A stretch of 64,000 nucleotides of DNA from an uncultured virus (IMG/VR IMGVR_UViG_3300042006_000071) (taxonomy: Duplodnaviria; Heunggongvirae; Uroviricota; Caudoviricetes): the IMG/VR virus record IMGVR_UViG_3300042006_000071. One strand, given 5' to 3'. The translations under genes and the position numbers were made by a program. Below are positions 7,400-56,888 of this stretch, one piece after another. The first letter of the stretch is position 1. Each line of letters starts with the position of its first letter. Under the pieces are notes generated by a model, which saw nothing but the letters and a program-made list of their open reading frames with translations, did not search any database and was not told the DNA's origin.

Positions 7400-7585
7400 A
7401 TGGCAACCATTAGCCAACTGCGCGCGCAGCGCACCAACGTCATCGCCGCAATGTCGGAGAAGGAGCAAACCGTGAAGAACATGGACGCCAACATGCGCGC
7501 CCTGCGCGGCGAGATCGACAAGCTGCGCAAGCAGGAGCGTCAGTTGACCGCCGAGATCACCAAACTGGCGAGGGATGAACTGTGA
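7400..7585 (+). CDS. small coiled-coil protein ending -DEL
   Basis: GGAGG RBS; heptad pattern. Confidence 0.8.
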   Translation: MATISQLRAQRTNVIAAMSEKEQTVKNMDANMRALRGEIDKLRKQERQLTAEITKLARDEL

Positions 7586-8445
7586 AGATCACCAACGGCA
7601 AGGTGTTCATGAACGGCAAAGAGGTCGGGACTGTAGATGCTGAAATCAAACTGCCGCAGGATTCTAGCGCCGGGGAGCCTCATGCTGTCCCCGCCATGTA
7701 CGGCAGCTTGAAGATCAGCAAGGCCAAGCTGGACAAGTTCATTCGACCCCAGGTGCGAGTCACACCGGCCCCTTGGTGGTTCGATCTGGAATCGGAGCCG
7801 CTGCCCTCGCTGGCCCAGGAGCGCACCCGCCGCTGGTTCCCGGTGGGCCTGACTGGTTCGATCCCCAGCCACCCATTCGACCGCCCGCTGATCGACGCCT
7901 TCTACAACCGCCGCCTGGGCGAGCCGTTCGACGAGGCCACCACCCTGCGCGCGGCGAGCGAGCGCTTGAACACGCCGAAGCTGACCGCCGAGGAACTGCT
8001 GGCGTCGCTGCGCAAGGCCATCGGCGTGAGCGACGAAATGATTCAAGAGCCGGTGTACTTCGGCCCTAACCGCGCCGCCCAATCACTCTCGCTCGCCGCG
8101 TACAACATGCGTCGGCACCAGCGCGAACTGGAAGTGGGTCGGCAGGCCATGCGCAGCCTGACCGCGAGCATGCTCCATGAGTGGTTCCGTGGTCTGTTCG
8201 GCCCGACGCTGGCCCACCACATCGCCAAGATTTACAACAAGGGGAATGACTATGCAAATCCGCGAACTGCATTCGCTGCGTCCGTCGTGTCGGCAGTGTG
8301 GAACCCGCGTCAAGGACTTGACGTGCCAGCACTTGCCCGAAGAATCGTTGTACCTTCTATCGGCAGTGTGCCACGGCGACCGCCACGTGGAGGTGATCGA
8401 GGCCCACATGATCGAAGAAGCACTCGCAAGCCTTTCAACCAATAA
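7582..8445 (+). CDS. hypothetical protein
   Basis: GTGA overlap start; last ~65 codons overlap the next gene. Confidence 0.7.
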   Translation: MKITNGKVFMNGKEVGTVDAEIKLPQDSSAGEPHAVPAMYGSLKISKAKLDKFIRPQVRVTPAPWWFDLESEPLPSLAQERTRRWFPVGLTGSIPSHPFDRPLIDAFYNRRLGEPFDEATTLRAASERLNTPKLTAEELLASLRKAIGVSDEMIQEPVYFGPNRAAQSLSLAAYNMRRHQRELEVGRQAMRSLTASMLHEWFRGLFGPTLAHHIAKIYNKGNDYANPRTAFAASVVSAVWNPRQGLDVPALARRIVVPSIGSVPRRPPRGGDRGPHDRRSTRKPFNQ

Positions 8446-8461
8446 CCACACCGCTTTCTAA
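8252..8461 (+). CDS. small CxxC (putative zinc-binding) protein
   Basis: AAGGGG RBS; CRQC...CH motif; phage-like codons in this frame. Confidence 0.6.
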   Translation: MQIRELHSLRPSCRQCGTRVKDLTCQHLPEESLYLLSAVCHGDRHVEVIEAHMIEEALASLSTNNHTAF

Positions 8462-8474
8462 GGAGCGCAACTAC

Positions 8475-8699
8475 ATGAACGTAAGCACCACCCTCCTGGC
8501 CGCGCACATGCGCAAGAGCCGCAAGCAGCAAGAGCAGCGCGTGATCGACCACGGCATCGCCAATGCCAACGGCGCGGGCGACCCGATCATCGACAACGCG
8601 CTGCGTGTGAACCTGATGGGCCAGCATCCTATCGGCAAGCCGATGATGAAGATCGTCTCGGCCTCCATCGCAATCGCATTCGACGACGGAGCGCTGTGA
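8475..8699 (+). CDS. hypothetical protein
   Basis: AAGGAG RBS. Confidence 0.8.
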   Translation: MNVSTTLLAAHMRKSRKQQEQRVIDHGIANANGAGDPIIDNALRVNLMGQHPIGKPMMKIVSASIAIAFDDGAL

Positions 8700-9857: not shown

Positions 9858-9859
9858 TC

Positions 9860-13360: not shown

Positions 13361-13686
13361 TGGTGATGCAATACGACTATGAGTCCAAGCACTCACGCGA
13401 CGCAATGAAGAAGATCACGCGCTTCCTCGTCGGTCGCTGGGGCAAGGGTGCCACCCAAAGTCAGATTGCATTGAAGACCGGCATGACCACGCCCACGGTC
13501 AGCCGGTATCTGAAATACCTCATGGAGCAGAACGAAGTACATGAGGCGGGCAAAACTGATTCTGCACGTGGCGGCAAAGCCGTCCTTTATAAACCTGGGC
13601 CTAACCCGAATCCGCCGCCCCCGCGCCGACCAAAGCGCGAGTACACGGACTTACCGTTGGCCTTCTTTGGAGTACAAACAAAATGA
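13360..13686 (+). CDS. winged helix-turn-helix DNA-binding protein
   Basis: ATQSQIALKTGMTTPTVSRYLKYL helix-turn-helix and wing; TAATG coupling. Confidence 0.8.
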   Translation: MVMQYDYESKHSRDAMKKITRFLVGRWGKGATQSQIALKTGMTTPTVSRYLKYLMEQNEVHEAGKTDSARGGKAVLYKPGPNPNPPPPRRPKREYTDLPLAFFGVQTK

Positions 13687-13994
13687 GCGTGAATGCACAA
13701 GCGCTGACGCCCTGGTTCAAGGCGACAGAGCACCACCCTGGACACGTCGGCCCGTACCGCTGCCGCACGAACCTGCCGTATCGCGGCAAGACGCCGGAAG
13801 AACAGACCTATCACATGCGCTGGTGGGATGGTGCCGACTGGTCGTTCCCCCTGGACTTCGACCCCGACCTCGACGACGAAATCCTGCCGCCGACGAAGGA
13901 GCAAATGCTGAAGGCCGCTGACCCGGTGGACACCGCGATCCTCCTTGACCGTTTCGACTGGCAAGGTTACACGTCGGATCAAGACCCGTTGTAA
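13683..13994 (+). CDS. hypothetical protein
   Basis: LTPWF...PGHVGPY...WWDG...WQG motif; ATGA coupling. Confidence 0.8.
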   Translation: MSVNAQALTPWFKATEHHPGHVGPYRCRTNLPYRGKTPEEQTYHMRWWDGADWSFPLDFDPDLDDEILPPTKEQMLKAADPVDTAILLDRFDWQGYTSDQDPL

Positions 13995-14548: not shown

Positions 14549-14898
14549 AGACGCTGGCCGACATCCTGCTCCATCCGTATCTCCACCAGCAGCGCAAGCA
14601 CGACCTGGGCGACGACTACACGCAGCGCGAGGTCAATAGCTGGGACAACATGCGCCTCGTCGAAGCGATCAGCGACGCCCTGGAAGAACGCCTGACGCCG
14701 CAGGTGCCGGAAGCACCCAGTAAAGACAAGTCGGTGATGACACCTGTGATGTGGGCAGTTCGCACCGAAGCCCTGGCTGACGTGATGGCGATGCTGGGCG
14801 CGCACGCCACCCCGGAAGAACTGGCCGACTGGTTGAAGGACGAGCACGCGGCATCCAAAGCAAACAAGACGCGCGAAGAGTGGGAGAACGAAATATGA
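14545..14898 (+). CDS. hypothetical protein
   Basis: ATGA coupling; GAGGTG RBS. Confidence 0.8.
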   Translation: MKTLADILLHPYLHQQRKHDLGDDYTQREVNSWDNMRLVEAISDALEERLTPQVPEAPSKDKSVMTPVMWAVRTEALADVMAMLGAHATPEELADWLKDEHAASKANKTREEWENEI

Positions 14899-15116
14899 GC
14901 GCCATCAAGCAATGGCTGGTCGATCCAGTCAACACCGAGACGCCGTGCTACATCACGAACAAGCCGGAAGTGGCGCAGAAGCGCGCCAACGCGGGCGACT
15001 ACGTGGTGGAACTCGAACGCAGCGCGGCGCACTGCAACCGCCCAGGCTTCGCACCGTACTACCGCCAAGTGAAGCCTGCCGTCAGCCAACCTAAGACTGA
15101 GGACGACGAACTGTGA
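14895..15116 (+). CDS. hypothetical protein ending -DDEL
   Basis: ATGA coupling; GGAG RBS. Confidence 0.75.
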   Translation: MSAIKQWLVDPVNTETPCYITNKPEVAQKRANAGDYVVELERSAAHCNRPGFAPYYRQVKPAVSQPKTEDDEL

Positions 15117-16081
15117 AAGCCATCAAAGCCTACACCCCTTTGCGCCTGACCGACCCTGCACTGTACAACTGGTGCAAGACGGCCTCGCGCTCCATGCGCA
15201 CGATGGGCGTGCTCGAACACTTCCTGGCGAAAGACCCGGCACCGCACGCCTGGAACAGCATGGGACTGATCGCACCGTTCCACACCGATCAGCCTGTCCA
15301 CGACCTCGACGGCGCGGCCTACCTGCTGGCCTACCAGTTCAACGACCGCATCCTGCCAGGGCCGGTGCGCGACGAGAAGATGCTGGCCCGCATTGCCGAT
15401 CTGCGCGAGAAGGAAGACCGCGAGCCGACGAAGCAGGAGTACGCGCAGATTCGTGATGCGGTCGAGTCCGAACTGCTGCCGCAGGCGTTCATCCGCCGCA
15501 CGCACATTCCGGTGCTCGTCTTCAAAGACAAGGTGCTGATCTGCACCACGGCGGCGAAGAAGGTCAGCGACATCACGCACCACCTGACGCAGTTGATGGT
15601 CGTGCGCAAAATCGCTGGCACCTTCGAGTTGGTATGGACGCAGGAGGACATCGCTCCGACTTTGAAGAAGTGCGTGCTCGATGACGTGATCGAAACGAGC
15701 AACGGCTTCACCTTCGAGGCCAGCGACGCCGCAGTGTTCAAGGGTGCCGACAAGCGCACGCTGACAATCAAGGCGCGCTCGATGTCCCGCAAGGACGTGC
15801 AACTGGCCCTGGTCGAAGGCAGCTACGACGTGACCGCGTTGAAGATGGACTGGCAGACGGAAGACGGCGAGAGCATGGCGTCGTTCACGCTGACCGACAA
15901 GTTCGTGGTCAAGTCGATCAAGCTGGCCGAGACTCCCGAACTGAAGTCGGCAGAAGACGCGCACGCGACCTTCTACATCTTCGCCCGGCAGTTGAGCCAA
16001 CTGCACGAAGACATCGTTGACGCACTGGGCGGCTACACGCACGGCCCTGAAGGCGGCAACGATGAAGACGACGAACTCTAA
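15113..16081 (+). CDS. rdgC: recombination-associated protein RdgC homolog (ends -DDEL)
   Basis: SMGLIAP, RILPGPV...ELLPQAF motifs and ~320-aa length typical of RdgC. Confidence 0.85.
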   Translation: MKAIKAYTPLRLTDPALYNWCKTASRSMRTMGVLEHFLAKDPAPHAWNSMGLIAPFHTDQPVHDLDGAAYLLAYQFNDRILPGPVRDEKMLARIADLREKEDREPTKQEYAQIRDAVESELLPQAFIRRTHIPVLVFKDKVLICTTAAKKVSDITHHLTQLMVVRKIAGTFELVWTQEDIAPTLKKCVLDDVIETSNGFTFEASDAAVFKGADKRTLTIKARSMSRKDVQLALVEGSYDVTALKMDWQTEDGESMASFTLTDKFVVKSIKLAETPELKSAEDAHATFYIFARQLSQLHEDIVDALGGYTHGPEGGNDEDDEL

Positions 16082-16112: not shown

Positions 16113-16352
16113 ATGCCAAAGCCAAAGACCGGCCACGTTCAGACGCAAGTGCTGGTGAATAAGATGGCCTACATGAAGCCCGGTCAGTCCTTCTTCGTGG
16201 AGGGCGTGAGCCGTGCAGACATGGAATTCCTGCGCCGACCAGTGAAACGCATGGGCATCGGTATTCGGATCGTCGAGGTTGAATGCGACGAGATTTACCA
16301 ATGCCACGGCGTCCGTGTTTGGCGTGAGGAAGGCGAGTATGACGAACTCTGA
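16113..16352 (+). CDS. small putative DNA-binding protein ending -YDEL
   Basis: MKPGQSFFV...GVRVWR motif; GGAG RBS. Confidence 0.7.
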   Translation: MPKPKTGHVQTQVLVNKMAYMKPGQSFFVEGVSRADMEFLRRPVKRMGIGIRIVEVECDEIYQCHGVRVWREEGEYDEL

Positions 16353-16557
16353 CGAAGAGACAGAGGTGGAGAAGCTGCGCCGACTGCTGCGTGTGGCCCT
16401 GGGCCATGCCGACGCATACAAGGTGCACTTCCACCACCTGCAAGAGAGCATGTGGGCCGCTGAGAAGCTGGCCTACAAGCGGAAGGAAATCATCGAGCGG
16501 CAGCGCTCCATGATCGAAGACTACGAGGCCCGCCTGGGCCTCACCGATGAACTGTAA
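16339..16557 (+). CDS. coiled-coil protein ending -TDEL
   Basis: GAGGA RBS; overlaps previous gene end. Confidence 0.75.
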   Translation: MTNSDEETEVEKLRRLLRVALGHADAYKVHFHHLQESMWAAEKLAYKRKEIIERQRSMIEDYEARLGLTDEL

Positions 16558-17275: not shown

Positions 17276-17303
17276 ATCCCCTGAACACCGCATGGAGAAC
17301 AAG

Positions 17304-17654
17304 ATGGCAACAGTCACCATCAGCAAGACCTTCACCCGCTACGAGTTGATCGGCGTACAGCCGCGCACCGGCAAGCTGCAACCATACAACGCCGTCGTAT
17401 CGACCAACACGCTCGCCAACCGCCTCCTGGCCGCTGGCATCCCGGTTGTCGGCGTGCTGGGCATCGTGGCCGTGGAGTGGGGCAAGCTGACCGTCGAGCA
17501 TGAAGACGGCCTTGACGGCGACGAATGGAAGTACACGTGGACGGGTGAGGAAGTGCCGAAGTCCTGGCGCAAGCGCATGGCCGAACAGGGCTACCGCAAC
17601 GCCCTGGACAACCCCCTGGCCGCACGCATCGCGGCTGAAGACGACGAACTTTAA
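17304..17654 (+). CDS. hypothetical protein ending -DDEL
   Basis: GGAG RBS before ATG at 17304. Confidence 0.8.
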   Translation: MATVTISKTFTRYELIGVQPRTGKLQPYNAVVSTNTLANRLLAAGIPVVGVLGIVAVEWGKLTVEHEDGLDGDEWKYTWTGEEVPKSWRKRMAEQGYRNALDNPLAARIAAEDDEL

Positions 17655-18510: not shown

Positions 18511-18950
18511 GCGCCCAGGTCACACACCTGAACTACCGGCACGCCGAGAACATGGCCCACAGCCGCGAGCACGCCGAGTGGCTGACCCGCATGGCCGCAC
18601 GTGCCATCGGCATCGACGTGACGAACGCTCAGTGGAGCTACCCGCACGGCGGCTTGCTACTGGTCGGCGCGACCGGCGTGCGCGAGGCGGGTGAACGCAA
18701 GCTGTTCTGCCCGCTGAACGACATGGGCGACGCCTTCGAGGTGCAGACGAAGTTGCGCATGAATGCGCACTATCGCTACATCAGCGCCGACCGTCACGCG
18801 ATCTACATGAGCCTCGCGCACGACAAGTCGAAGGTCGATCTGTGGGCCATGATTAACGACGGTGACGATGTGTTCCGCGTTCGCATGAACGCGGTCACGC
18901 AGTTGGCCGCTCTGCGCCAAGTGGAGATCGACAATGAATTGGGACGATGA
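18507..18950 (+). CDS. hypothetical protein
   Basis: ATGA coupling; PLNDMGDAF motif. Confidence 0.8.
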   Translation: MSAQVTHLNYRHAENMAHSREHAEWLTRMAARAIGIDVTNAQWSYPHGGLLLVGATGVREAGERKLFCPLNDMGDAFEVQTKLRMNAHYRYISADRHAIYMSLAHDKSKVDLWAMINDGDDVFRVRMNAVTQLAALRQVEIDNELGR

Positions 18951-19242
18951 ACTGCTCGATCAGCAGCCGGACGAAGAACGACGACGCCACCAGAAGCTCG
19001 GGAGGAAGGCCAATATGCCGCGCGAAGAAGTGCTGAAGGTCGAGAAGGGCGCGTCCTGCTACAAGGGGGTCGTGACCGCAGTGAAGGTGGCCGGTGTCGA
19101 GGTCATCATCATGGCCCGCAACAGCAGCGAGTTGATGATCGCCCACCAGAAGATCACCAACTTCGCTGACTACCGCCTGGGACTCGTCCACAAGGCGGGC
19201 ATCATGCCAGCGTCGGCGATCACGTTGGACGACGAGTTGTAA
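18934..19242 (+). CDS. hypothetical protein ending -DDEL
   Basis: GGAG RBS; last rightward gene before convergent terminator. Confidence 0.75.
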   Translation: MNWDDELLDQQPDEERRRHQKLGRKANMPREEVLKVEKGASCYKGVVTAVKVAGVEVIIMARNSSELMIAHQKITNFADYRLGLVHKAGIMPASAITLDDEL

Positions 19243-25536: not shown

Positions 25537-26553
25537 TTAACGAGCGACCATGCCGAAGTTCGACGACTCGACGCGGTTCTGGTTCCAAGGCACCGCGCCC
25601 GGCGCTTGCTCGTACAGTGCGGTCTTGTAGGCGTAGCTGGTTGCCAGCGGCACCTGCGTTTCGGTTTCACCGGCAGTCGTCTTGACCAGCATGCCGAGGG
25701 AGCGGTTGTCGAGGTCGCCCTTGCGAGCGTAGCCGACCACTTGCACTGCGAAGATCACGTTGTCGTTCGGGAGCACGGTGTTGGACGAGAAGCGGTCGGT
25801 CTTGCCCGCGACGTTCGCTTGCAGGTACGGCGCGTTGGCCGCGTTCGGCGACAACTGCGCAGCAATGGATGCGTGCGTACCGGCGCTGCCTTGTGGCGTC
25901 CACTCGGCGGTCACGTCGGCACTCGGCGCGCGGGTGATGATCTGCATTGGGCCAGGACGAGTGTTCTGCACGCCGCCCGACGAATCGCAGATGTAGAAGT
26001 CGTCGATCTCCACCGTGGCCGCGTTCGCGTTCGCGCCGGACAAGCCCCACTGGATCACGTGGTTGTTCGTCACCGCGCCGCCCGGAAGATCGGCTTCCAG
26101 TTGCAGCGTGTCGTTGGCCCACACGCGCACCTTCGCCGCGATCTTGTCGATCTCCACCTCCATGAACCAGAAGGCGTTCAGGATAATCACGTCCTGACCC
26201 TGCACGCTGCCGATGAACGCCTTGCCGGTATTGGTGTCCCAGCCGATGTCCACCACGCCGTTCAAGCGGGCAAAGCGCACGCGGGAGCCAGTGCCTTTGT
26301 GCGACCAGCCGAACCAGATGTTGTCGGCGGTCGTGGTGTGGGCATAGCTGATGTTCGGCGGCGTGCTCGAACCGGCGTCGATGGTCAGCTTCACGCCCAG
26401 GGAGTTCGCATCCTGGCCGTCCACGATGTTCAATTTGTTCAGCGCCGCATTGCCAACCGTGTACCCTGCCGCCGTGAGGTAGGTTGCGATGTTCGATGCA
26501 CTCTCGGTCTTCGCCGCGTAGTGCTCGAAGCCGTCGATAAATTTCATAGCCAT
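25537..26553 (-). CDS. tail-fibre subunit paralog
   Basis: FIDGFEHY N-terminus; IDDFY...RPGP; W...FGM C-terminus. Confidence 0.75.
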   Translation of the reverse strand: MAMKFIDGFEHYAAKTESASNIATYLTAAGYTVGNAALNKLNIVDGQDANSLGVKLTIDAGSSTPPNISYAHTTTADNIWFGWSHKGTGSRVRFARLNGVVDIGWDTNTGKAFIGSVQGQDVIILNAFWFMEVEIDKIAAKVRVWANDTLQLEADLPGGAVTNNHVIQWGLSGANANAATVEIDDFYICDSSGGVQNTRPGPMQIITRAPSADVTAEWTPQGSAGTHASIAAQLSPNAANAPYLQANVAGKTDRFSSNTVLPNDNVIFAVQVVGYARKGDLDNRSLGMLVKTTAGETETQVPLATSYAYKTALYEQAPGAVPWNQNRVESSNFGMVAR

Positions 26554-26569
26554 TGTGAAGTCCTTTCAG

Positions 26570-28462: not shown

Positions 28463-28475
28463 ATTGTTTTCCTCT

Positions 28476-29468
28476 TTATGGAGTTGCTACGTTGATGCCG
28501 AACTCAGATGCCACTACGCCGGGCGGCGTGTCGCCCGCGACCTGATCGAAGAACACGTACTGCGTCTTCCAGTCGTCGCCGACCTCCCGCTTGTCGCTGC
28601 GCGCTGCGATTGCGCCGGAATTGCCGCCCATGAACACGCCCAGCTTTGCGTTCAGCGTCGGAGCCTTGCGCGCCATGACCACGATGCCGGTCGCCAGGAT
28701 CGCGCTATCGTTCGGCAGTGCCGTGTTCGACTTGAAGCGATCCTCTTTGCCGATGGTGTCGCCCGCCACGTAGGCGTCCAGAGGCTCAGGTGGATGCAGC
28801 GACAAGGACTGGGCGTGCGTCATGGTGGCGCTGGCCTTGAACCACTCCGCGTTCACGTCGAGGTCAGGGAAGCGCGTCGTCACGATCACCGGGCCGATGC
28901 GGTCGCCGTCGCGTGCGTAGAAGTCGTCGAAGTATTTGATGCCGGTGTCGGCGCGTGCTGGCATTTCCGGTGGACGGTAGGTCGCCGAGTCCTGATAGCC
29001 CAGCTTCACCGTCACCGTTTCACCGGCAGCGAAGCCGTCCGGCAGCGTGATCGACGAGTCGAACTTGTTGTTGATCCACAGTTCGCAGGTGGTGCGCGAC
29101 ATCTTCAACTCGTAGTAGTACCAGCGGTTCTTGGTCGGCAGCGCGCCGCCAGGATTCGCGTTCAGCATCGGCAGGCCGTTGATCTCGTTCAGCCACAACT
29201 GGATGGACGCGCCACCGGCAGTCACGCGCATCAGCGCGCCGCGATCTGCGAAGTTGAAGGCTGCGCCGCAAGCGAAGACCGGCCCGGCCCAGTCGAACAC
29301 GCGCGAGATCGAAACGCCACCGCCGCCCAGGGCCGTGGAGCCGGGAACCGACGAGCGCCCGGCCACGGCGGTCATGGTGCCAAGCGGCGTCCACTCCGCA
29401 GTCTCCAACAGACCATTCGGCGAGCCGCTGCCGCTGAACTCTTCAAAGCCGTCAATAAACATTCTCAA
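28476..29468 (-). CDS. tail-fibre subunit paralog
   Basis: FIDGFEEF N-terminus; FDDFY...RIGP; FGI C-terminus. Confidence 0.75.
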   Translation of the reverse strand: MRMFIDGFEEFSGSGSPNGLLETAEWTPLGTMTAVAGRSSVPGSTALGGGGVSISRVFDWAGPVFACGAAFNFADRGALMRVTAGGASIQLWLNEINGLPMLNANPGGALPTKNRWYYYELKMSRTTCELWINNKFDSSITLPDGFAAGETVTVKLGYQDSATYRPPEMPARADTGIKYFDDFYARDGDRIGPVIVTTRFPDLDVNAEWFKASATMTHAQSLSLHPPEPLDAYVAGDTIGKEDRFKSNTALPNDSAILATGIVVMARKAPTLNAKLGVFMGGNSGAIAARSDKREVGDDWKTQYVFFDQVAGDTPPGVVASEFGINVATP

Positions 29469-32647: not shown

Positions 32648-32653
32648 GAGGTA

Positions 32654-46781: not shown

Positions 46782-47069
46782 TTACAATTCGTCGCCAGCG
46801 CCGCCGTTGCCGCCGTTGCCGCCGTTGCCGTTGCCCTTGTCTTCGGGCTTGGCTTCAGCTTTACCCTTCGGTGCAGCGGGGGTCTTGGCCTGCGGTGCGT
46901 CTTCAACTTCGTTGATCGGCTTGCGCAGTGCGCCAGGATTCACTTCGAGGATCGAGTCGATTTCGTCCTGAGTGAACTCGAATTTTTCACCGGCCTTGAC
47001 GGCGATGCGCTGGCCCTTGCGCATCAGAATGATCTTGCCGGTTGCGATACGCAGTTTGGTTGCTGCCAT
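46782..47069 (-). CDS. FI-position accessory head/packaging protein ending -GDEL
   Basis: AAGGAG RBS; directly after capsid gene; flexible GNG linker before DEL. Confidence 0.7.
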   Translation of the reverse strand: MAATKLRIATGKIILMRKGQRIAVKAGEKFEFTQDEIDSILEVNPGALRKPINEVEDAPQAKTPAAPKGKAEAKPEDKGNGNGGNGGNGGAGDEL

Positions 47070-51764: not shown

Positions 51765-52013
51765 TTAGAAGTAGAAGGTTGCAGGGGACTTCGGCAGCGA
51801 CGCGAACGGCGAGCCGATGCCGAGTGCCGATTGCAGCGAGGCGATGTAGTTGTACAGGTCGGTCTTGCGGGCGGCGGTGAACTCCACGCGCTCGCCGTTC
51901 TGATCGACCACCACGCGGGCCGACTGGCCGGTCACAAGCTGGTGGTACGCCTTCTGTGCTTCGGTCAGGCGGGCCTGATAAAGCACGGTTTCTGCTGGTG
52001 TCAGTGTCATCAT
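51765..52013 (-). CDS. head-tail joining protein (gpW family)
   Basis: AYHQLVTG...DQNGERVEFT motif. Confidence 0.9.
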   Translation of the reverse strand: MMTLTPAETVLYQARLTEAQKAYHQLVTGQSARVVVDQNGERVEFTAARKTDLYNYIASLQSALGIGSPFASLPKSPATFYF

Positions 52014-52023: not shown

Positions 52024-54099
52024 CTATGCAAGCGCCTGGGCCATCCCGGCAAAATCGTAGCCGGATTTTACTTTAGTTTCATGGGCGTTCTGCCCTTGCG
52101 GAACTCGCACGAAGTCGTTGGTGTCCCACTCGCTCGCCCAGGATGGTGGGTTCGACCAGTCGATTGCCTCCACCCGGACATACGCGCTGACCGCGAGGCC
52201 GATGGCGTAGTAGGACAAGTCCCAGGCTTCGTTACGTGCGGTGCCGGTGCGCTCCCAGCCCTTATCGGTTCGCACCTCGGAACACAATTCGTTGTAGTAG
52301 TCGATAGGGAGCCAGTCGGGGAATCGGTACATGCCCTTGCCCGGCTCGATGCAGTCCAGGCGACCGTCGAGGTCATCCTTGATGATGTTCGAGTTCAGCA
52401 TCAGCACCGGCACGTCGCCGCGCGCCGCCGACTTGCTGTCCTTGCGGCCGGAATCGGGGAACGACACGCGAGCGCGCGGCTGGCCGGGCTTGCCCTCGCC
52501 CTTCAGCAGCACGAAGCGCTGGTGTTTGCCCTGCGTGACCAGCCAGCGCCAGAAGTCGTAGGCGCGGGACGTGACGCCCTCTTTGCCGCCGCTGTCACAC
52601 CCGGTGATCTTGATTGCCATCATGCGACCGGAGCCATCGTCCAATTCATACTCGCGCTCCATCACCTGCTCGACGATCAGCTTCCAGTCTTCGAGATAGG
52701 CGTGCGGGCGCACCGGCAGCGGATCGCCGTCGTCGTCCCTGCGCTTCGACTTGACGATGTGGAAGCGGTCGATCATCACCATGTCGAACGGCTGGCCCGG
52801 CAGGATGCCATTCACCTGCACCGCGAAGCCGCCCTTCTGCACGTCGATCAGCGCCTCAAGGAATCGAACGCCGACAGGCACCTTCTTCTCGGCCAGCGGC
52901 TCGGCGCGCGCCTTGATCGCTTCAGGCAGGCGAATCTCCATCGACGCTTTGGACAGGTACGGCTCGCCCAGGTCGTTGTTGTAGAACTTCTTCAGCGCGT
53001 CTTCGGAGCCGGTGCGCTCGTAGCTGTCCTCGGCGTCGAGGTACATCACCAGAAGCTCTTTCCAGTTCACGAACGATGCTGCCACGCCGCGCAGCCAGAA
53101 CGACGCGATCTTCGAGCGCAGCGCCTTGCCGAACTTCTTGCCGAAGCGGTTGATCGACTCGCCATCGCGCACCCACAAGCCCCACAGGTTCATTTCGTAG
53201 CGCTCGTCCTGATGGATCGGGAAGTCGCAGGCCGGGCAGTGCATGCGCACCGTCTCGGCCACGTCGAGGTTGGACATACCCTCCTTCTTGTCCCATTGCA
53301 GATGCGTGAACTTGCCCTCGAAGTAGTGATCGCAGTGCGGGCAGGGCCAGTACCAACGGCGGCGATCCCCACGGTTGTAGAGGCCGATGATCCCGTTGCA
53401 CGGCGGCGCTTCGTGCGCCGTCTTCGGAATCCACTTCATGTCGATCACTTCGCGCGACGGCGAGGACTCGGCCACGGTCATCGCGTTGGACTTGTAGGTC
53501 GTGGTTCGCTTCGCCGACAAGTCGAATGGCTCACCGTCGCCGCCGATGTCATCTTCCATGCGGTCACGGTCGGTCAGGATCACGCGCCCGATTGGCTTAC
53601 CGGCCAGTTCGGTCGGCGTCGGCCAGGACAGCGACAGGATCATCCCGTTGCGGTACTGCTTGTCGAACGTGTTGTCGTTCGCGGAGCCGGGCATCATCAG
53701 CTTGCCGACTTGATCGCTGTAGGTGTTGAGGCGATCCACACGGCGCATGGAGAAGTCACGCGCTGCGGTGTTGGTCGGGCAGACGATCATCATGTCCATC
53801 GGGTCGATGATGACGGAGTAGAGGATCGTGTTGATAATCAGCGAGTCGGTCTTGCCGCACTGCGCCGGGCCGACGAACACCATGCCGGTGTACTCGGTGG
53901 ACGCGAACACGTCCATCGGCTCGCGCATGTACGGCACCTTTGAATTGAGCCAGGGGCCGACATAAGCGCCTGGGCTGTTCACGTAGCGGTACTTCGCCGC
54001 CGCGTCCGACACGCTCATGCGCTCCGGGGGTCGCAGCATTTCGGCACAGTCGAACACCAGCGCGTGAATGGCGTCGAACTCTTTCACATCAAAGTTCAT
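52024..54099 (-). CDS. terL: terminase large subunit (lambda gpA family)
   Basis: PYMREPM, AQCGKT, SSPS, GDRRRWYWPCPHC, DVQ, NEAWD motifs. Confidence 0.95.
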   Translation of the reverse strand: MNFDVKEFDAIHALVFDCAEMLRPPERMSVSDAAAKYRYVNSPGAYVGPWLNSKVPYMREPMDVFASTEYTGMVFVGPAQCGKTDSLIINTILYSVIIDPMDMMIVCPTNTAARDFSMRRVDRLNTYSDQVGKLMMPGSANDNTFDKQYRNGMILSLSWPTPTELAGKPIGRVILTDRDRMEDDIGGDGEPFDLSAKRTTTYKSNAMTVAESSPSREVIDMKWIPKTAHEAPPCNGIIGLYNRGDRRRWYWPCPHCDHYFEGKFTHLQWDKKEGMSNLDVAETVRMHCPACDFPIHQDERYEMNLWGLWVRDGESINRFGKKFGKALRSKIASFWLRGVAASFVNWKELLVMYLDAEDSYERTGSEDALKKFYNNDLGEPYLSKASMEIRLPEAIKARAEPLAEKKVPVGVRFLEALIDVQKGGFAVQVNGILPGQPFDMVMIDRFHIVKSKRRDDDGDPLPVRPHAYLEDWKLIVEQVMEREYELDDGSGRMMAIKITGCDSGGKEGVTSRAYDFWRWLVTQGKHQRFVLLKGEGKPGQPRARVSFPDSGRKDSKSAARGDVPVLMLNSNIIKDDLDGRLDCIEPGKGMYRFPDWLPIDYYNELCSEVRTDKGWERTGTARNEAWDLSYYAIGLAVSAYVRVEAIDWSNPPSWASEWDTNDFVRVPQGQNAHETKVKSGYDFAGMAQALA

Positions 54100-54811
54100 C
54101 TTCTTCTTCCTCCCGCAGTGCTTCACGCAGCACGCGCAGTACGATCTTCGGATTCAACTCGGCCAGTTCGACCATCGCATCGAACGCTTCGTCGTCAACT
54201 TGCAGCAGCACGTGCAGCTTCTCCGACATGCTGCGCGCGGCTTCACCCACCGGCATCGGATTGTCCTGGCGATCCCTCTTCGGCTTGAACTGCTCGCGCA
54301 CAGAGGCATACATCTGTTCCAGCATGGAGTCGCCCAACTGCTTCACGATGCGGCGCTGCGTGTCGGTCAGTTCGGCCTGCTGCTCCACGCCGTCGCACAT
54401 CAGGCGCACGGACATCTTCATCAGCTTCGCCAGCGCGCCGAAGACGCTGACCACGCGGTCGGTCGGCCACAAGTCGCCGTAGCGTTCCTCGACCTCCTGG
54501 CGCGTCTTCAGCGCGGCCCAAAACTCCTTCGACAAATGCTTCGGAAGGTCGTTGTGGTGCATGCGCTTCAGGTACGTCTCGATGTCGCCGACCGGCTTCA
54601 CCAGATGCGGAGCGGCCACGTCCAGCCGCCATGTCTCGGTGCCGTTTCGTTCGCCGGTCGCCGGGACGCCGTGCAGCTTCTCGACCAGTACCCGGTGATC
54701 CATTCGGAATGCAATGCTCAACTGGGACAGGTTCAAGCCGTCATAGAGCATTTCGCGGGATTCGTCGTCCAGGCTCGATACCCGGCGACGTGTGGTGTGT
54801 TGTGAGGCCAT
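54089..54811 (-). CDS. terS: terminase small subunit (ends -EDEL)
   Basis: N-terminal HTH; KEFWAAL...GDLWPT; directly upstream of terL. Confidence 0.8.
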   Translation of the reverse strand: MASQHTTRRRVSSLDDESREMLYDGLNLSQLSIAFRMDHRVLVEKLHGVPATGERNGTETWRLDVAAPHLVKPVGDIETYLKRMHHNDLPKHLSKEFWAALKTRQEVEERYGDLWPTDRVVSVFGALAKLMKMSVRLMCDGVEQQAELTDTQRRIVKQLGDSMLEQMYASVREQFKPKRDRQDNPMPVGEAARSMSEKLHVLLQVDDEAFDAMVELAELNPKIVLRVLREALREEEEDEL

Positions 54812-55017
54812 TAGATTCGTTCCTTGATTAGCTGTTGCAGCGAGCGCTGCGGCAGACGGAGGATGTCTGCGACGTGGTAGCGGTGATACGGTTGCAGCGG
54901 GCGGGAGCCGTTGCGGTAGGCGGCGTATGTAGGGTACGCGATGCCTATCAGCTTGCAGGCTTGCGGAGGGCCGAGGCCCACGGCTTCCTCAAACTTGACA
55001 AGAATTTTGTTGACCAT
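54811..55017 (-). CDS. small Cro/CI-type HTH protein
   Basis: PPQACKLIGIAYPTYAAYRNGSRP; first gene behind late promoter. Confidence 0.75.
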   Translation of the reverse strand: MVNKILVKFEEAVGLGPPQACKLIGIAYPTYAAYRNGSRPLQPYHRYHVADILRLPQRSLQQLIKERI

Positions 55018-55052
55018 GAAATAAAAATCCCCACCTATCCAATGAATAGGTG

Positions 55053-55081
55053 AGGATAATAACCGCGTTCGGCCTTGTCAG
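55053..55081 (-). promoter_or_regulatory. late/packaging promoter with degenerate dyad (55060-55080)
   Basis: CTGACA-17-TATCCT; TGACAAGG half-site. Confidence 0.6.
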
Positions 55082-55088
55082 TACGTTT

Positions 55089-56888
55089 TCAGAGTTCGTC
55101 GTAGCAGTCGGAGCCTGGGCCGCAAGGCCCGCCGATGTCGCCGCATTTCGGGCAGTGCTCGGTCGGCTCGTCGAAGCGTTCCTCGTCGGCCTCCTTGTCG
55201 GCGTAGTCGGTCAAGACCTCTCGCACCTCTTCCCACTCTTCCTGCGTCTTCGGCTGCGCCTTCATCTTCTTCAGCAGGGCCAGCAGTTTGCGTCGCATCT
55301 TCTTCAGAATCTTGAACAGCTTCTCCTGCACGTCGTCCTTGGCCTTCAGCACGTCCACCACTGTCTGATCCATCGTGTTCCGGCAGACGATGTGGATGAC
55401 GGTGACGCGGTTCTTCTGGCCCTGGCGATCCAGGCGACCGATGAATTGCTGGTACAGTTCGAGCGACCAGATGATGTCGAAGAAGACGATGATGTGACCG
55501 CCTTGTTGGAGGTTCAGGCCGTGACCGCCGCTGGCCGGGTGCATCGCCAGCATTGGAATCTTCCCGGCGTTCCAGGGCTTCTTCAGCTTGCCGTCCTTGT
55601 CCATGATCTTCAACTGCGGGAAGGCTTTCTTCAGCCGATCCTTGGACGACTTGTGGTGGTAGGCGATCAGGATGGGCTGACCCTGCGCTTCCTCCACGAT
55701 CTGCTTCAGCATTTCGATCTTGTGGTCGTGGATGCTGTGAACCTTCAACACCTTCACGTGATCGTCGTCTTCGGTCTGCCCTGGCCGCAACTGCACGTCG
55801 TACAGCACGCCGGACGCCATCTGCAACAACTTCTGCGACAACGCCGCCGCGTTTTCCGCCTTGACCACAGTGCCGTCGTCCAGCTTCAGCACCATGTCCT
55901 TTTCCATCGTCAGGTACTTGCGCATCTGCTCGTCGTCCATGTCCACGTAGCGGTTGACATAGACAGGCGGCACGGACGGCAGGTAGTCCTCACGCTTCAT
56001 CACAAGGCAGATGTCGCTGATGCGGGCCAGGATCGACTTCTCCGCGCCGGGCAGCAGCTTCAGCTTGTGCGTGTACGGGCATTCCTTGAAATACTTCTCG
56101 CGGTAGTGTGTGATCTTGCGGCCCAGGCGGTCGCCTTTGTCGAGCAGGAAAATCTGCGAGAACAGACCCTCGTAGCCCTCGGTGGCCGGTGTCGCGGTCA
56201 GGATGTGCAGGCGCTTGATTGGCTCGCTCGGCTGCGTGCGCACGGACTTCAGCGCCTCGAAGCGGCCCGACTTGTGATCCTTGAAGCCGCTGCTCTCGTC
56301 GATGATGACGATCTCGTAGGGCCACTTGCTGCCGTAGAAGTCCACCAACCATTCCAACCAGTCGCGGCTGATGACGTGAATCTGGCGCTTGTTCGTCGCG
56401 CCCTCTTCGCGCAGCTTGATCTTCAGCGCGGCGCACGCCTGCTGCGCGGCCTTGTCGGCGTACTTCGACTTCTCCTGGCCGACGTAGCGCATCGCCTCCG
56501 CTTCGATCATCGCGTCGGCGCGCACCTGCTTCCACTTCTCCTTCAGGCGCTTGTCGTCGTCCTCCACGTGGATCACGTTCGGCTCGAACGGCGCGAGGTG
56601 ACGCCACGTGCGGAACTCGTCGGGCCACGTGGTCAGCGCCACCTTCTTCGGGCCGACGATCAGCACCTTCTTGCCGTCCGTGATCTCGAAGTCGTTCAGA
56701 AGATCGACGATCAGCGTGCCGCACGAAACGGTCTTGCCCAGGCCCATGTCGATGAACAGGCCGGAGAACGGGTTCGCCTTCAGGAACTCCAACGCCGTGT
56801 TCTGGTAGCCGTGCATGTCACTGCGTTCAAGGGTCACGTCCTTGAACAGATCGCGGATCGCACGGTCAATCGCGCTCAACTCACTCAT
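55089..56888 (-). CDS. SNF2-type SF2 helicase (ends -YDEL)
   Basis: DMGLGKT, IIDESS, LTATP, GHGLNLQ, RLDRQGQ. Confidence 0.93.
   Translation of the reverse strand: MSELSAIDRAIRDLFKDVTLERSDMHGYQNTALEFLKANPFSGLFIDMGLGKTVSCGTLIVDLLNDFEITDGKKVLIVGPKKVALTTWPDEFRTWRHLAPFEPNVIHVEDDDKRLKEKWKQVRADAMIEAEAMRYVGQEKSKYADKAAQQACAALKIKLREEGATNKRQIHVISRDWLEWLVDFYGSKWPYEIVIIDESSGFKDHKSGRFEALKSVRTQPSEPIKRLHILTATPATEGYEGLFSQIFLLDKGDRLGRKITHYREKYFKECPYTHKLKLLPGAEKSILARISDICLVMKREDYLPSVPPVYVNRYVDMDDEQMRKYLTMEKDMVLKLDDGTVVKAENAAALSQKLLQMASGVLYDVQLRPGQTEDDDHVKVLKVHSIHDHKIEMLKQIVEEAQGQPILIAYHHKSSKDRLKKAFPQLKIMDKDGKLKKPWNAGKIPMLAMHPASGGHGLNLQQGGHIIVFFDIIWSLELYQQFIGRLDRQGQKNRVTVIHIVCRNTMDQTVVDVLKAKDDVQEKLFKILKKMRRKLLALLKKMKAQPKTQEEWEEVREVLTDYADKEADEERFDEPTEHCPKCGDIGGPCGPGSDCYDEL

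What the first reader, a model, noticed from the sequence alone, without database searches (positions are those of the whole stretch)
7400..56888. Ten unrelated phage proteins share an exact C-terminal -DEL tag: candidate undescribed docking/sorting system
Seen: genes 7400-7585 (RDEL), 14895-15116 (DDEL), RdgC 15113-16081 (DDEL), 16113-16352 (YDEL), 16339-16557 (TDEL), 17304-17654 (DDEL), 18934-19242 (DDEL), 46782-47069 (GDEL), TerS 54089-54811 (EDEL) and the SNF2 helicase 55089-56888 (YDEL) all end Asp-Glu-Leu-stop. Near variants end the SSB (-NDDL), 61413-61826 (-DDNL), 13683-13994 (-QDPL) and 3526-3924 (-RDL). Codons vary (GAT/GAC; GAA/GAG; CTG/CTC/CTT/TTG; TAA/TGA), so the constraint is on the peptide, not a DNA repeat. 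With typical residue frequencies the chance expectation is about 0.03 among ~85 genes. The tag often follows a flexible acidic or Gly linker. It is absent from capsid, portal, tail and lysis proteins, and several carriers act on DNA. Established: short acidic-hydrophobic C-terminal tails act as docking motifs (bacterial SSB -DDDIPF, T7 gp2.5 tail, T4 clamp-binding tails). Inference: a common hub (phage or host) recruits replication, recombination and packaging factors through this tag, or the tag controls protease stability.
Basis: partly seen in the sequence, partly recalled or inferred. Interest (0 to 1): 0.9.

Follow-up and report, generated by a model that had tools for sequence, protein, structure and literature searches.

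The report
Shared acidic C-terminal phage docking tail
About one in eight proteins of this phage and its relatives, all working on DNA and none part of the virus particle, end in the same few acidic residues plus one hydrophobic residue, which looks like a common address label for one still unidentified docking partner.

Summary
Ten of about 75 genes in the window end Asp-Glu-Leu-stop (expected 0.02, P about 4e-24), while internal DEL occurs at the chance rate.

The constraint is on the peptide. In 13 related genomes, 82 of 955 called genes end DEL and 132 end [DE][DE]-hydrophobic. The consensus is (D/E)(D/E)-D-D-E-L-COOH. Orthologues at 22-55% identity keep the last four residues while upstream residues diverge.

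Carriers are the Enc34/gp2.5-type SSB, the primase-helicase (cut by the window's end), SNF2 helicase, RdgC, DUF2800 exonuclease, TerS, a DUF7443 protein and small early proteins. Virion proteins almost never carry it.

Cultured Casjensviridae show the same pattern in lineage-specific "dialects": -DDEV in Chivirus YSD1, -DDDL in SS2019XI, -DDDF/I in JC01, -GL in BcepNazgul. Tails match within a genome far more than shuffling allows (0 of 10,000 shuffles).

Best reading: an expanded version of the phage T7 gp2.5/gp4 acidic tail, docking many clients to one co-evolving receptor. The receptor was not identified. Candidates are the SSB DNA groove, the polymerase, TerL or a host protein. Six literature searches found no description.

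The parts
7400..7585 (+). 61-aa coiled-coil early protein ending -RDEL
   Evidence: translation; coding score 32; weak coiled-coil Pfam hits only. The single orthologue found, in G006, ends KEEL.
14895..15116 (+). 73-aa early protein ending -DDEL
   Evidence: All 8 of 8 family members end [DE][DE][DE]L.
15113..16081 (+). RdgC-family protein ending -DDEL
   Evidence: Pfam RdgC, E 2e-27. All 12 of 12 family members carry the tail. The linker before the tail varies in length and sequence.
16113..16352 (+). 79-aa phrog_7200 protein ending -YDEL
   Evidence: In 11 of 12 family members the end is [YFW]D[DE]L or a close form.
16339..16557 (+). 72-aa early protein ending -TDEL
   Evidence: Eight family members end DDEL, TDEL, DQEL or DQDL.
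17292..17654 (+).
   Evidence: All 12 of 12 family members carry the tail. Identity is 0.82 over the last 4 residues against 0.17 for residues -5 to -12. No family or fold lead was found.
18934..19242 (+). 102-aa early protein ending -DDEL, last gene of the early + strand block
   Evidence: All 8 of 8 family members carry the tail.
46782..47069 (-). 95-aa DUF7443 protein ending -GDEL: a conserved N-terminal domain of about 55 aa, a low-complexity linker, then the tail. It lies between the capsid gene and the head-tail joining genes.
   Evidence: Pfam DUF7443, E 1e-15. Eight of 14 members carry a tail. The protein at the same position follows the local dialect in YSD1 (EDEV) and Nazgul (SGL).
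54089..54811 (-). Small terminase subunit (TerS) ending -EDEL
   Evidence: phrog_141 and DUF1441. Ten of 14 orthologues carry the tail. TerS follows the dialect in named phages.
55089..56888 (-). SNF2-family helicase with a Cys-rich C-terminal extension ending -YDEL
   Evidence: Of 120 listed homologues, 42 end DEL and 8 end EEL, across different C-terminal architectures.
59403..60074 (-). Enc34/gp2.5-type single-stranded DNA-binding protein (SSB) ending -NDDL. It carries the tail and is also a candidate receptor through its DNA groove.
   Evidence: Pfam Enc34_ssDNA-bd. PDB 5ODJ, E 3e-38. Alignment A3 shows a variable linker followed by DDD[DE]L. The AF2 model puts the tail (residues 199-222) at pLDDT below 50.
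61413..61826 (-). 137-aa phrog_7721 protein ending -DDNL (near variant)
   Evidence: Orthologues end DDDI, DDGL or DGDL.
13683..13994 (+). 103-aa protein ending -QDPL (near variant)
   Evidence: Orthologues end Q[DE]PL, QDEL or QEEL.
62509..63999 (+). N-terminal 497 aa of a Prim-Pol/PriCT-2 primase-helicase. The gene runs off the window, so its own C-terminus cannot be seen.
   Evidence: Full-length relatives of about 855 aa (Prim-Pol + PriCT-2 + DUF5906) end DDDDEL in 7 genomes, and 11 of 15 carry a tail. All 120 of 120 homologues end in a hydrophobic residue, 56 of them in DEL.
60118..61413 (-). DUF2800 PD-(D/E)XK exonuclease. It ends -AFDD here, but carries the tail in more distant relatives and in named phages.
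57162..59336 (-). DNA polymerase (phrog_1252, remotely family-B-like) with no consensus tail. It is a candidate receptor by analogy with T7.
   Evidence: A profile search hits Pol alpha and archaeal PolB at E about 3e-7. Tails of the family are listed.
52024..54126 (-). Lambda gpA-type large terminase (TerL) with no tail. It is a candidate receptor for the packaging-factor tails.
   Evidence: Pfam GpA_ATPase and GpA_nuclease. None of 15 family members carries a tail.

Best explanation
The tail is a short linear docking motif at the free C-terminus, with consensus (D/E)(D/E)-D-D-E-L-COOH. It is usually tethered by a variable, disordered linker.

The motif is the tail of the phage's own gp2.5/Enc34-type SSB and of its primase-helicase. 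That is the arrangement known from phage T7, where gp2.5 and gp4 both end in an acidic stretch plus Phe. In this lineage the tail has spread to at least eight further proteins that act on DNA and are not in the virion: SNF2 helicase, RdgC, TerS, a DUF7443 protein, in relatives the DUF2800 exonuclease, and several small early proteins.

All these clients are inferred to compete for, or be recruited to, one receptor that co-evolves with the tail. Because close phages of related hosts use different terminal residues, the receptor is more likely phage-encoded.

Candidate receptors, in order:
1. The DNA-binding groove of the SSB core. It is present in every tail-bearing genome and has a structural precedent.
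2. The DNA polymerase, by analogy with T7.
3. TerL.

Shown here: the motif, its conservation, its carriers and its within-genome co-variation. Inferred: binding, the identity of the receptor and the functional outcome (recruitment, hand-off of SSB to new ssDNA, or eviction of SSB).
For: Enrichment.
- 10 of 75 genes end DEL against 0.022 expected, with internal DEL at the chance rate.
- In 13 genomes, 82 of 955 genes end DEL and 132 of 955 end [DE][DE][LIFMV]. Position -1 is L in 121 of those 132.
- Controls: 2 of 926 genes in distant loci and 0 of 61 in G015.

Peptide-level island of conservation.
- Identity over the last 4 residues is 0.60-0.89 in 8 of the 10 tail families tabulated. The exceptions are SNF2 helicase (0.24) and DUF7443 (0.35).
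- The preceding 20 residues score 0.07-0.37 in nine of the ten families. The exception is phrog_7200, which is conserved throughout (0.6).
- Whole-protein identity of these families is 39-54%.
- RdgC orthologues at 22-40% identity keep the tail behind linkers of different length.
- Helicase homologues keep DEL behind unrelated C-terminal extensions.

Not a DNA signal. All Leu codons, both Asp and both Glu codons and all three stops are used. The flanks are not conserved.

T7-like core. The SSB is a homologue of Enc34 ORF6 (5ODJ, E 3e-38) and ends DDD[DE]L. All 120 of 120 primase-helicase homologues end hydrophobic, and 87 end [DE][DE]-hydrophobic. T7 itself shows ADEDGDF on gp2.5 and WSNDTDF on gp4, and no other of the 45 called genes ends this way.

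Co-variation. Dialects are -DDEV in YSD1, -DDDL in SS2019XI, -DDDF/-DDDI/-DDEI in JC01, -[AG]GL in BcepNazgul and -(D/E)IGL in Suzuki. Each is shared by the SSB and other families of the same genome. Identical last-2 residues within a genome across 7 families and 13 lineages: 75 observed, shuffle mean 33.3, maximum 56, 0 of 10,000 shuffles reaching the observed value.

Specific to function. Only 1 of 228 members of the virion and assembly families found in all 13 genomes carries a tail.

Precedents read as passages. The T7 gp2.5 tail interacts with gp5 and the helicase (PMC4124056) and anchors to the polymerase front basic patch (PMC12339929). The acidic C-terminus of Enc34 ORF6 lies in the concave beta-sheet groove of a neighbouring molecule (PMC5686142).
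Against: No binding was shown, and no receptor was identified.

The AF2 model of the full SSB leaves the tail disordered, with no sign of docking onto its own core.

Two non-homologous polymerases occur among tail-bearing phages. The window's clade, AH2, phiAxp-2 and FoX4 have the phrog_1252 PolB-like enzyme. YSD1, JC01, Smarc1, SS2019XI, Nazgul and Suzuki have a different polymerase of similar size, ending Y[RK]KD or CYQK, that does not match the window's enzyme and that YSD1 and Suzuki annotate as Pol I. This weakens the T7-style polymerase receptor.

TerS and the DUF7443 protein are not replisome parts, so a purely replisomal hub does not explain them.

Some orthologues lack the tail: the helicases of G006 and G008, and the exonuclease in the window. 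The tail is therefore dispensable for some carriers.

The GAA excess (77% against 52%) shows some constraint at codon or nucleotide level that this reading does not explain.

The lineages in the co-variation test are related, and the number of independent dialect shifts is small, about four or five.
Confidence: 0.6

Rival explanations
1. The receptor is a host protein. The tails dock phage proteins onto, or block, a host hub such as a replication, repair or chaperone protein with a pocket for an acidic C-terminal peptide. The dialects would then track the host.
For: No phage protein with a known C-terminal-peptide-binding domain was found. No PDZ, TPR or clamp domain appears in 74 window proteins scanned with Pfam or 75 scanned with PHROGs. 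The two Burkholderia phages, Nazgul and AH2, both show -GL/-DL ends although they carry different polymerases. Many carriers are small early proteins, a class that often targets host proteins.
Against: Phages of closely related enterobacteria differ in the terminal residue: YSD1 of Salmonella uses V, JC01 of Cronobacter uses F or I. Phages labelled with distant hosts (Serratia, Aeromonas, Xanthomonas, Achromobacter) share -DEL. Nazgul and AH2 are related to each other, so their shared dialect may come from common descent. No host genome is held for this window, so this could not be tested.
Confidence: 0.17
2. The tail is a stability tag. It is a degron, or an anti-degron, read by a host or phage protease to time the turnover of early, replication and packaging proteins.
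For: It sits at the extreme C-terminus with a free carboxylate, on many early proteins, and is absent from virion proteins. The phage encodes an S49 protease.
Against: The tail is on the SSB and the primase-helicase, which are needed throughout replication. In T7 the homologous tail has a shown docking role (passages in PMC4124056 and PMC12339929). From recall, known bacterial C-terminal degrons are non-polar (the ssrA LAA end) and acidic residues at -2 and -3 block them. The S49 protease is the lambda gpC-type head maturation protease by family and gene position.
Confidence: 0.08
3. There is no common receptor. Each tail is an independent DNA-mimicking, self-inhibiting tail that folds back on its own protein's DNA-binding surface, as in many SSBs. 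The similarity would then be convergence.
For: Most carriers bind or process DNA. Acidic tails that compete with DNA are documented for T7 gp2.5 (title of reference 14 in PMC5686142) and for Enc34 ORF6, whose tail removal changes DNA selectivity (PMC5686142 passage).
Against: Convergence on charge does not explain an invariant terminal Leu (121 of 132). It also does not explain the whole set switching together to Val, Phe/Ile or Gly-Leu in other lineages. Several carriers are small coiled-coil proteins with no sign of DNA binding. The AF2 model of the SSB shows no folding back (weak evidence).
Confidence: 0.08
4. The signal is read in the nucleic acid: a translation-termination or coupling context, or a DNA or RNA site at gene ends. 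The peptide would be a by-product.
For: GAA is over-used in the tail (9 of 10 in the window, 63 of 82 in 13 genomes, against about 50% in gene bodies). CTG is under-used. Two tails overlap the next gene's GTG start.
Against: Six Leu codons, both Asp and both Glu codons and all three stop codons occur. Substitutions are conservative at the protein level (D/E, L/I/M/V/F). Downstream contexts differ: overlap, gap, terminator. Part of the lower GC3 is shared by the last codons of genes without tails.
Confidence: 0.04
5. Artefact: the ORF ends are miscalled, or acidic ends are ordinary in such genomes.
For: The gene caller was home-made, and its retrained versions disagreed on some genes.
Against: All ten ORFs were checked directly and have orthologues with the same ends. 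The deposited annotation of YSD1 gives the same gene ends as the caller. Negative controls are clean: 2 of 926 genes in distant loci.
Confidence: 0.01

Closest known systems
Phage T7 acidic C-terminal tails of gp2.5 (SSB) and gp4 (primase-helicase), which dock on the gp5 DNA polymerase
   Same: An acidic, disordered C-terminal segment ends in one hydrophobic residue with a free carboxylate, and is shared by the SSB and the primase-helicase of one phage. The window's SSB belongs to the same structural class as gp2.5 (phrog_112; 5ODJ). The T7 ends ADEDGDF and WSNDTDF were read.
   Different: T7 has two carriers among 45 called genes. Here there are 10-17 per genome, including TerS, RdgC, an SNF2 helicase and small proteins. 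The terminal residue is Leu (or Val, Ile or Gly-Leu in other lineages), not Phe. The primase-helicase is a Prim-Pol/D5 type, not the gp4 type. The polymerase is not T7-like and is not even the same family across carrier phages. Binding to the polymerase is not shown here.
Enterobacter phage Enc34 ORF6 SSB (PDB 5ODJ, 5ODK, 5ODL)
   Same: It is a direct homologue of the window's SSB (E 3e-38). It has an acidic C-terminus (16 of the last 29 residues), and the traceable end of that tail lies in the groove of a neighbouring molecule (PMC5686142, passages).
   Different: The paper treats the tail as a property of the SSB alone. In the passages read, it does not mention other proteins of the phage sharing it.
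Bacterial SSB C-terminal tip (-DDDIPF) interactome
   Same: It is an acidic stretch plus a hydrophobic C-terminal tip with a free carboxylate, used as a docking peptide in DNA metabolism (recalled knowledge).
   Different: The topology is the reverse. In bacteria one tail on SSB meets pockets on many partners. Here many proteins carry the tail, which implies few receptors. The -IPF end is absent.
Phage T4 clamp-binding C-terminal tails (gp43, gp33, gp55 binding the gp45 clamp)
   Same: Several unrelated phage proteins share a C-terminal peptide that docks on one hub, linking replication to another process (recalled knowledge).
   Different: The T4 tails are hydrophobic, not acidic. No clamp gene was detected in the window.
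Eukaryotic shared C-terminal acidic motifs (EEY/F read by CAP-Gly domains, EEVD read by TPR domains, class III PDZ ligands)
   Same: In each case a few acidic residues plus a C-terminal hydrophobic residue, carried by several proteins, are read by one domain type (recalled knowledge).
   Different: These are eukaryotic. No such reader domain was found in the phage proteome. The resemblance is in logic only.

Membership tests
T7-type acidic C-terminal docking tail (gp2.5/gp4 kind) | Acidic, unstructured C-terminal segment | tested here: met
   Positions -2 to -5 are D or E in most of 132 tails. The SSB tail, residues 199-222, has pLDDT below 50 in the AF2 model. Linkers vary in length.
T7-type acidic C-terminal docking tail (gp2.5/gp4 kind) | Conserved hydrophobic residue as the very last residue | tested here: met
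   L in 121 of 132 tails, and I, M or F in the rest. All 120 of 120 primase-helicase homologues end in L, F, I or W. Whether the residue is essential was not tested.
T7-type acidic C-terminal docking tail (gp2.5/gp4 kind) | The same tail on both the SSB and the replicative primase-helicase of one phage | tested here: met
   Met in relatives and named phages. In the window itself the primase-helicase C-terminus lies beyond the window, and its full-length form was not found.
T7-type acidic C-terminal docking tail (gp2.5/gp4 kind) | The tail binds a basic patch of the phage DNA polymerase | tested here: inconclusive
   The one complex prediction gave no verdict. The polymerase family differs among carrier phages.
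gp2.5/Enc34-type SSB (Pfam Enc34_ssDNA-bd, formerly DUF2815) | Sequence and fold of the OB-type core | tested here: met
   Pfam E 8e-19, PDB 5ODJ E 3e-38, AF2 model with mean pLDDT 83.5.
Bacterial SSB-Ct interactome | -D-I-P-F end on a homotetrameric OB-fold SSB, with pockets on many partners | tested here: not met
   Tails end -DEL or -DDL. The tail sits on many proteins, not on the SSB alone.
ssrA-like C-terminal degron (ClpXP/ClpAP) | Non-polar last three residues (LAA-like) | tested here: not met
   Positions -2 and -3 are acidic in all ten tails. The definition of the degron is recalled knowledge.
T4-type clamp-binding tails | A sliding-clamp gene in the phage and a hydrophobic tail motif | tested here: not met
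   No clamp family appears among 75 proteins scanned with PHROGs or 74 with Pfam. The tails are acidic.
KDEL-type retrieval signal | A eukaryotic secretory pathway with a KDEL receptor | tested here: not met
   This is a tailed phage with spanin and endolysin genes, hence a bacterial host. The resemblance is in letters only.

The most novel reading that the evidence does not exclude
The tails may form a private, co-evolving address code. A genus-specific C-terminal tetrapeptide (-DDEL, -DDEV, -DDDL, -DDDF/I, -xxGL) would route 10-17 otherwise unrelated phage proteins to one phage-encoded hub. The best guess for that hub is the DNA groove of the SSB. The replisome, recombination enzymes, the terminase small subunit and small early proteins would then assemble on, or hand over, the same SSB-coated DNA. 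Divergence of the code would keep related phages that infect the same cell from using each other's factors.
Probability: 0.3. Interest if true: 0.85.

Novelty: new variant of a known kind. Interest (0 to 1): 0.78.

Why it matters
If the reading holds, the two-protein T7 curiosity becomes a proteome-wide organising principle in a large, cultured phage family. One short peptide would predict which proteins, including many of unknown function, belong to the DNA-transaction network.

It gives a handle for functional annotation, because the tail flags non-virion proteins that work on DNA. It gives a simple bait for finding the hub. It also provides a natural set of co-varying dialects for studying how a short motif and its receptor co-evolve.

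The idea is directly testable in Chi-like phages of laboratory enterobacteria, where the tail is -DDEV.

Tried and rejected
- Single-protein searches of IMG/VR with RdgC and with the helicase found no relatives. An alignment query was needed.
- No whole genome is held for the window, so the host could not be examined.
- One complex prediction was run: polymerase + SSB core residues 1-189 + the last 30 residues of RdgC as partner. It scored 0.00 in both runs, the controls were not run, and the verdict was \"no answer\". It counts neither for nor against binding.
- The AF2 model of the full-length SSB showed a disordered tail and no docking. This is uninformative about binding in trans.
- ESM Atlas look-ups for two conserved small carriers (17292-17654 and 16113-16352) gave no usable functional lead. 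PHROGs and Pfam were also empty for most small carriers.
- I first read AH2, Suzuki and the \"Chi-like\" phages as lacking tails because I searched only for DEL. Looking at each genome's own commonest ending showed other dialects.
- I first labelled the polymerase \"PolA\", and alignment A2 and my script labels still say so. A profile search shows it is remotely family-B-like.
- Extended nucleotide motifs around the stop codons were looked for and not found.
- Literature searches returned nothing describing many proteins of one phage sharing such a tail. The terms were: DDEL + phage; DDEV + phage; Casjensviridae + C-terminal + acidic; acidic tail, C-terminal motif, SSB and primase-helicase; DUF2815 + DUF2800; and the T7 tail terms. 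Apart from the three papers quoted, only the listings were seen. Subscription journals are not covered.

Full report
**1.

The four near variants (-NDDL, -DDNL, -QDPL, -RDL) are also correct.

The window is a 62% G+C tailed phage genome. I wrote a codon-score gene caller, which picked 75 genes including all ten carriers. Retrained versions of the caller dropped some of them (8 of 70 genes, 6 of 69, 8 of 71). Counts from this caller in other genomes are therefore lower bounds.

With the residue frequencies of the 75 proteins, 0.022 C-terminal DEL are expected. Inside proteins DEL occurs 6 times in 19,543 positions, which is the chance rate. The binomial P for 10 of 75 is 4e-24. In 926 genes called in distantly related phage loci fetched in the same search, 2 end DEL and 9 end [DE][DE][LIFMV].

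**2. The constraint is on the peptide**

The nine tail nucleotides use both Asp codons, both Glu codons, four Leu codons and two stop codons in the window. Across 13 genomes all six Leu codons and all three stops are used. Sequence 36 nt upstream and 40 nt downstream of the tails shows no shared motif. The downstream contexts differ: overlapping start, gap, terminator-like hairpin.

One oddity remains. GAA is used for the Glu in 9 of 10 tails in the window (46% in gene bodies) and in 63 of 82 tails in 13 genomes (52% in bodies, and 58% in the last three codons of other genes). CTG is under-used as well. Part of this is a general relaxation of G+C-rich codon choice at gene ends. The rest is unexplained.

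**3. What the phage is and who carries the tail**

PHROGs, Pfam and the nearest named phages place the phage among Casjensviridae-like siphoviruses. It has a lambda-type head and packaging module: gpA-type TerL, gpW, lambda-family portal, S49 protease, gpD-like and gpE-type capsid proteins.

Its replication module comprises:
- a DUF2800 PD-(D/E)XK exonuclease;
- an Enc34/gp2.5-type SSB (PDB 5ODJ, E 3e-38);
- a DNA polymerase;
- a VRR-NUC nuclease;
- an SNF2 helicase.

I first called the polymerase \"PolA\". A profile of its family instead matches family B polymerases remotely (E about 3e-7), and Pfam gives only a weak hit to a divergent family B model.

The carriers in the window are:
- RdgC, TerS and the SNF2 helicase;
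- a DUF7443 protein between the capsid and head-tail joining genes. This is the position of gpFI in lambda; the lambda gene order is recalled and the equivalence is an inference;
- six small early proteins without a usable family.

The SSB carries the close variant -NDDL. No capsid, portal, tail or lysis protein carries the tail in the window.

**4. Relatives keep the tail while the rest diverges**

*Helicase.* Of the 120 best helicase homologues in the large protein collection, 42 end DEL, 8 end EEL and others end DDL, DEI, EEI or LDL. The tail sits behind quite different C-terminal extensions: a Cys-rich HCPxCGDxGGPCGPGSDCY module, or acidic helical segments. Homologues below about 55% identity end in basic residues.

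*Whole genomes.* I fetched 80 IMG/VR loci with a helicase alignment and 15 whole contigs. In the window plus 12 contigs, 82 of 955 called genes end DEL and 132 end [DE][DE][LIFMV]. The expectation per genome is about 0.02 and 0.3 respectively. The set includes a contig of 44% G+C.

*Consensus.* Over the 132 tails, position -1 is L in 121, -2 is E in 107, -3 is D in 107, -4 is D in 78 (E 19, Y 11), and -5 is D or E in 81.

*By family*, members with a tail out of members found:

| Family | With tail |
|---|---|
| RdgC | 12 of 12 |
| phrog_7200 family | 11 of 12 |
| 17292 family | 12 of 12 |
| 18934 family | 8 of 8 |
| 14895 family | 8 of 8 |
| TerS | 10 of 14 |
| SSB | 11 of 16 |
| SNF2 helicase | 8 of 16 |
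| DUF7443 | 8 of 14 |

Only 1 of 228 members of the virion and assembly families present in all 13 genomes has a tail, the portal of G009.

*Island of conservation.* Anchored at the C-terminus, identity over the last four residues is 0.60-0.89 in eight of the ten tail families tabulated. The exceptions are the SNF2 helicase (0.24) and DUF7443 (0.35). The preceding 20 residues score 0.07-0.37 in nine of the ten. The exception is the phrog_7200 family, which is conserved throughout (about 0.6). Whole-protein identity is 39-54%. Three of the four control families show no such island; TerL keeps a conserved -xALA end. RdgC orthologues at 22-40% identity have linkers of about 12 to 45 residues before the same tail.

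**5. An eleventh carrier, and the link to T7**

A family of about 855 residues ends DDDDEL in seven genomes, and 11 of 15 members carry a tail. It has Prim-Pol, PriCT-2 and DUF5906 domains (Pfam) and matches phrog_1156 \"DNA primase\", so it is the primase-helicase.

In the window its gene starts at 62509 on the + strand and runs off the end, so the tail cannot be seen. A search for the full-length form did not return this phage's own protein. Among 120 homologues, all end in a hydrophobic residue (L 103, F 9, I 7, W 1), 87 end [DE][DE]-hydrophobic and 56 end DEL.

An SSB of the gp2.5 class and a primase-helicase sharing an acidic tail with a hydrophobic last residue is the arrangement of phage T7. 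In T7's sequence gp2.5 ends ADEDGDF and gp4 ends WSNDTDF, and no other of 45 called genes ends this way.

From passages read:
- The gp2.5 tail interacts with the T7 polymerase and helicase, and is needed to stimulate gp6 (PMC4124056).
- It anchors to the polymerase front basic patch (PMC12339929).
- The acidic C-terminus of the Enc34 homologue lies in the groove of a neighbouring SSB molecule, and removing it changes DNA selectivity (PMC5686142).

That the gp4 tail also binds the polymerase is recalled, not read here.

**6. Cultured relatives have the same system in other dialects**

I fetched eleven named genomes and called their genes. For YSD1 the deposited annotation gives the same gene ends as the caller.

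| Phage | Tail dialect and carriers |
|---|---|
| YSD1 (Chivirus) | Eight genes end [DE][DE]V: primase WDDEV, exonuclease DDDEV, SSB WEDEV, TerS DDDEV, RdgC DDDEV, the protein after the capsid gene AEDEV, and two more |
| SS2019XI | Nine genes end [DE]DL, seven of them -DDL |
| JC01 | -DDDF, -DDDI, -DDEI |
| phiWae15, Smarc1/UF_RH7, FoX4, phiAxp-2 | -D[DE]EL or -DDDL |
| BcepNazgul | Ten genes end -GL: SSB NGGL, exonuclease DDGL, helicase AAGL, primase GCGL, three more AAGL |
| AH2 | -DGL and -DDL |
| Suzuki | Three genes end -(D/E)IGL, including the SSB |

The commonest C-terminal tripeptide of each of these genomes has a binomial P between 7e-5 and 2e-18. These values are not corrected for having picked the commonest tripeptide.

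To test co-variation I shuffled the tails of seven families among 13 lineages, keeping each family's own set. Pairs of families in one genome with identical last two residues numbered 75 observed, against a shuffle mean of 33.3 and a maximum of 56. None of 10,000 shuffles reached 75. The lineages are related, and the independent switches number only about four or five. The figure is therefore an index of association, not a probability.

In still more distant loci the SSB and exonuclease tails also resemble each other, for example DDLS with DDLS and DDDLM with YDDLL.

**7. What this means**

A terminal motif conserved on unrelated folds, absent from virion proteins, and changing in step across families within a lineage is what a set of ligands for one co-evolving receptor looks like.

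Phages of Salmonella and Cronobacter differ in the last residue, while phages labelled with very different hosts share -DEL. A phage-encoded receptor is therefore somewhat more likely than a conserved host protein, but no host genome could be examined.

The T7 precedent points to the polymerase. However, tail-bearing phages use two non-homologous polymerases. The window's clade, AH2, phiAxp-2 and FoX4 have the PolB-like phrog_1252 enzyme. YSD1, JC01, Smarc1, SS2019XI, Nazgul and Suzuki have a different polymerase that does not match it; YSD1 and Suzuki annotate theirs as Pol I, and all end Y[RK]KD except Suzuki (CYQK).

The Enc34-type SSB is present in every tail-bearing genome and has a structural precedent for taking an acidic tail into its DNA groove. 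I rank it first, then the polymerase and TerL.

If the SSB groove is the receptor, two outcomes are possible. Enzymes that make ssDNA or must clear it (helicases, exonuclease, primase, terminase, RdgC) could hold free SSB for hand-off to new ssDNA. Or they could compete with ssDNA to evict SSB. Both mechanisms are inferences.

Nothing here shows binding. The single complex prediction returned no verdict, and the SSB model leaves its tail disordered.

**8. Rivals**

A host hub, a degron, independent self-inhibiting tails, a nucleic-acid signal and a gene-calling artefact are weighed in the Rival explanations section. The last two are close to excluded. The first three are not.

**9. Novelty**

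Six searches of the paper library found no description of many proteins of one phage sharing such a tail. Apart from the three papers quoted, only listings were seen. Subscription journals are not covered.

The kind of motif is known from T7. The scale (10-17 carriers), the range of carriers and the genus-specific dialects are new as far as these searches reach.

Noticed in passing
window 55089-55330 (C-terminal ~80 residues of the SNF2 helicase): A Cys-rich module, HCPxCGDxGGPCGPGSDCY, sits just before the tail. It looks like a small metal-binding knuckle. It is conserved in a subset of homologues and replaced by unrelated acidic segments in others. Named relatives align only to residues 1-521 of the helicase.
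   Followed up: partly
window 57162-59336: The DNA polymerase has no family A signature. Its family profile hits Pol alpha and archaeal PolB remotely. Its C-terminus has invariant H667, C678, C702 and C705 in a basic segment, possibly a zinc finger. Related Casjensviridae carry a different polymerase that does not match it (YSD1 and Suzuki annotate theirs as Pol I), so the polymerase has been replaced by a non-orthologous one within one replication module.
   Followed up: partly
tail codons of the ten carriers; 82 tails in 13 genomes: The Glu of the tail is GAA in 77% of tails against 52% in gene bodies. CTG is under-used for the Leu. The peptide-only reading does not explain this.
   Followed up: partly
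window 3526-3924 (-): This 132-aa protein ends -KRDL, and five of seven family members end exactly -KRDL. It is a conserved basic C-terminus distinct from the acidic tail.
   Followed up: no
window 3958-4662 (-): The family ends -DIEL, -DIEV, -DIEI or -DIEE in relatives, and -DIDE in the window. It may be a further variant of the tail, with a hydrophobic residue at -3.
   Followed up: no
window 25537-29462 and 30203-36048 (-): There are two runs of tandem paralogues among tail genes: three phrog_2448 proteins, and three proteins matching phrog_1101/6284 "tail protein". Two of each set keep fixed ends, -AVRP and -I[IV]AR in one set and -SYPC in the other.
   Followed up: no
window 52024-54126 (-) and 51765-51986 (-): TerL keeps a -xALA end, and the gpW-like adaptor keeps an -F[ILV]F end, across all relatives. 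These are conserved C-termini of another kind, perhaps docking ends of the packaging and head-joining machinery.
   Followed up: no
L149-L151 (UF_RH7) against L146-L148 (Smarc1): The record labelled Pseudomonas phage UF_RH7 has nearly the same gene ends, gene by gene, as Serratia phage Smarc1. The two have identical match statistics to the window's helicase, 48% identity, and SSB, 53% identity. The host labels of these two records seem hard to reconcile.
   Followed up: no
window 63402-63776 (-) and 61839-62081 (-): My caller listed these two low-scoring ORFs as genes. The first lies antisense inside the primase-helicase ORF and is probably not a gene. The true gene count is therefore nearer 74 plus the truncated primase-helicase.
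   Followed up: partly
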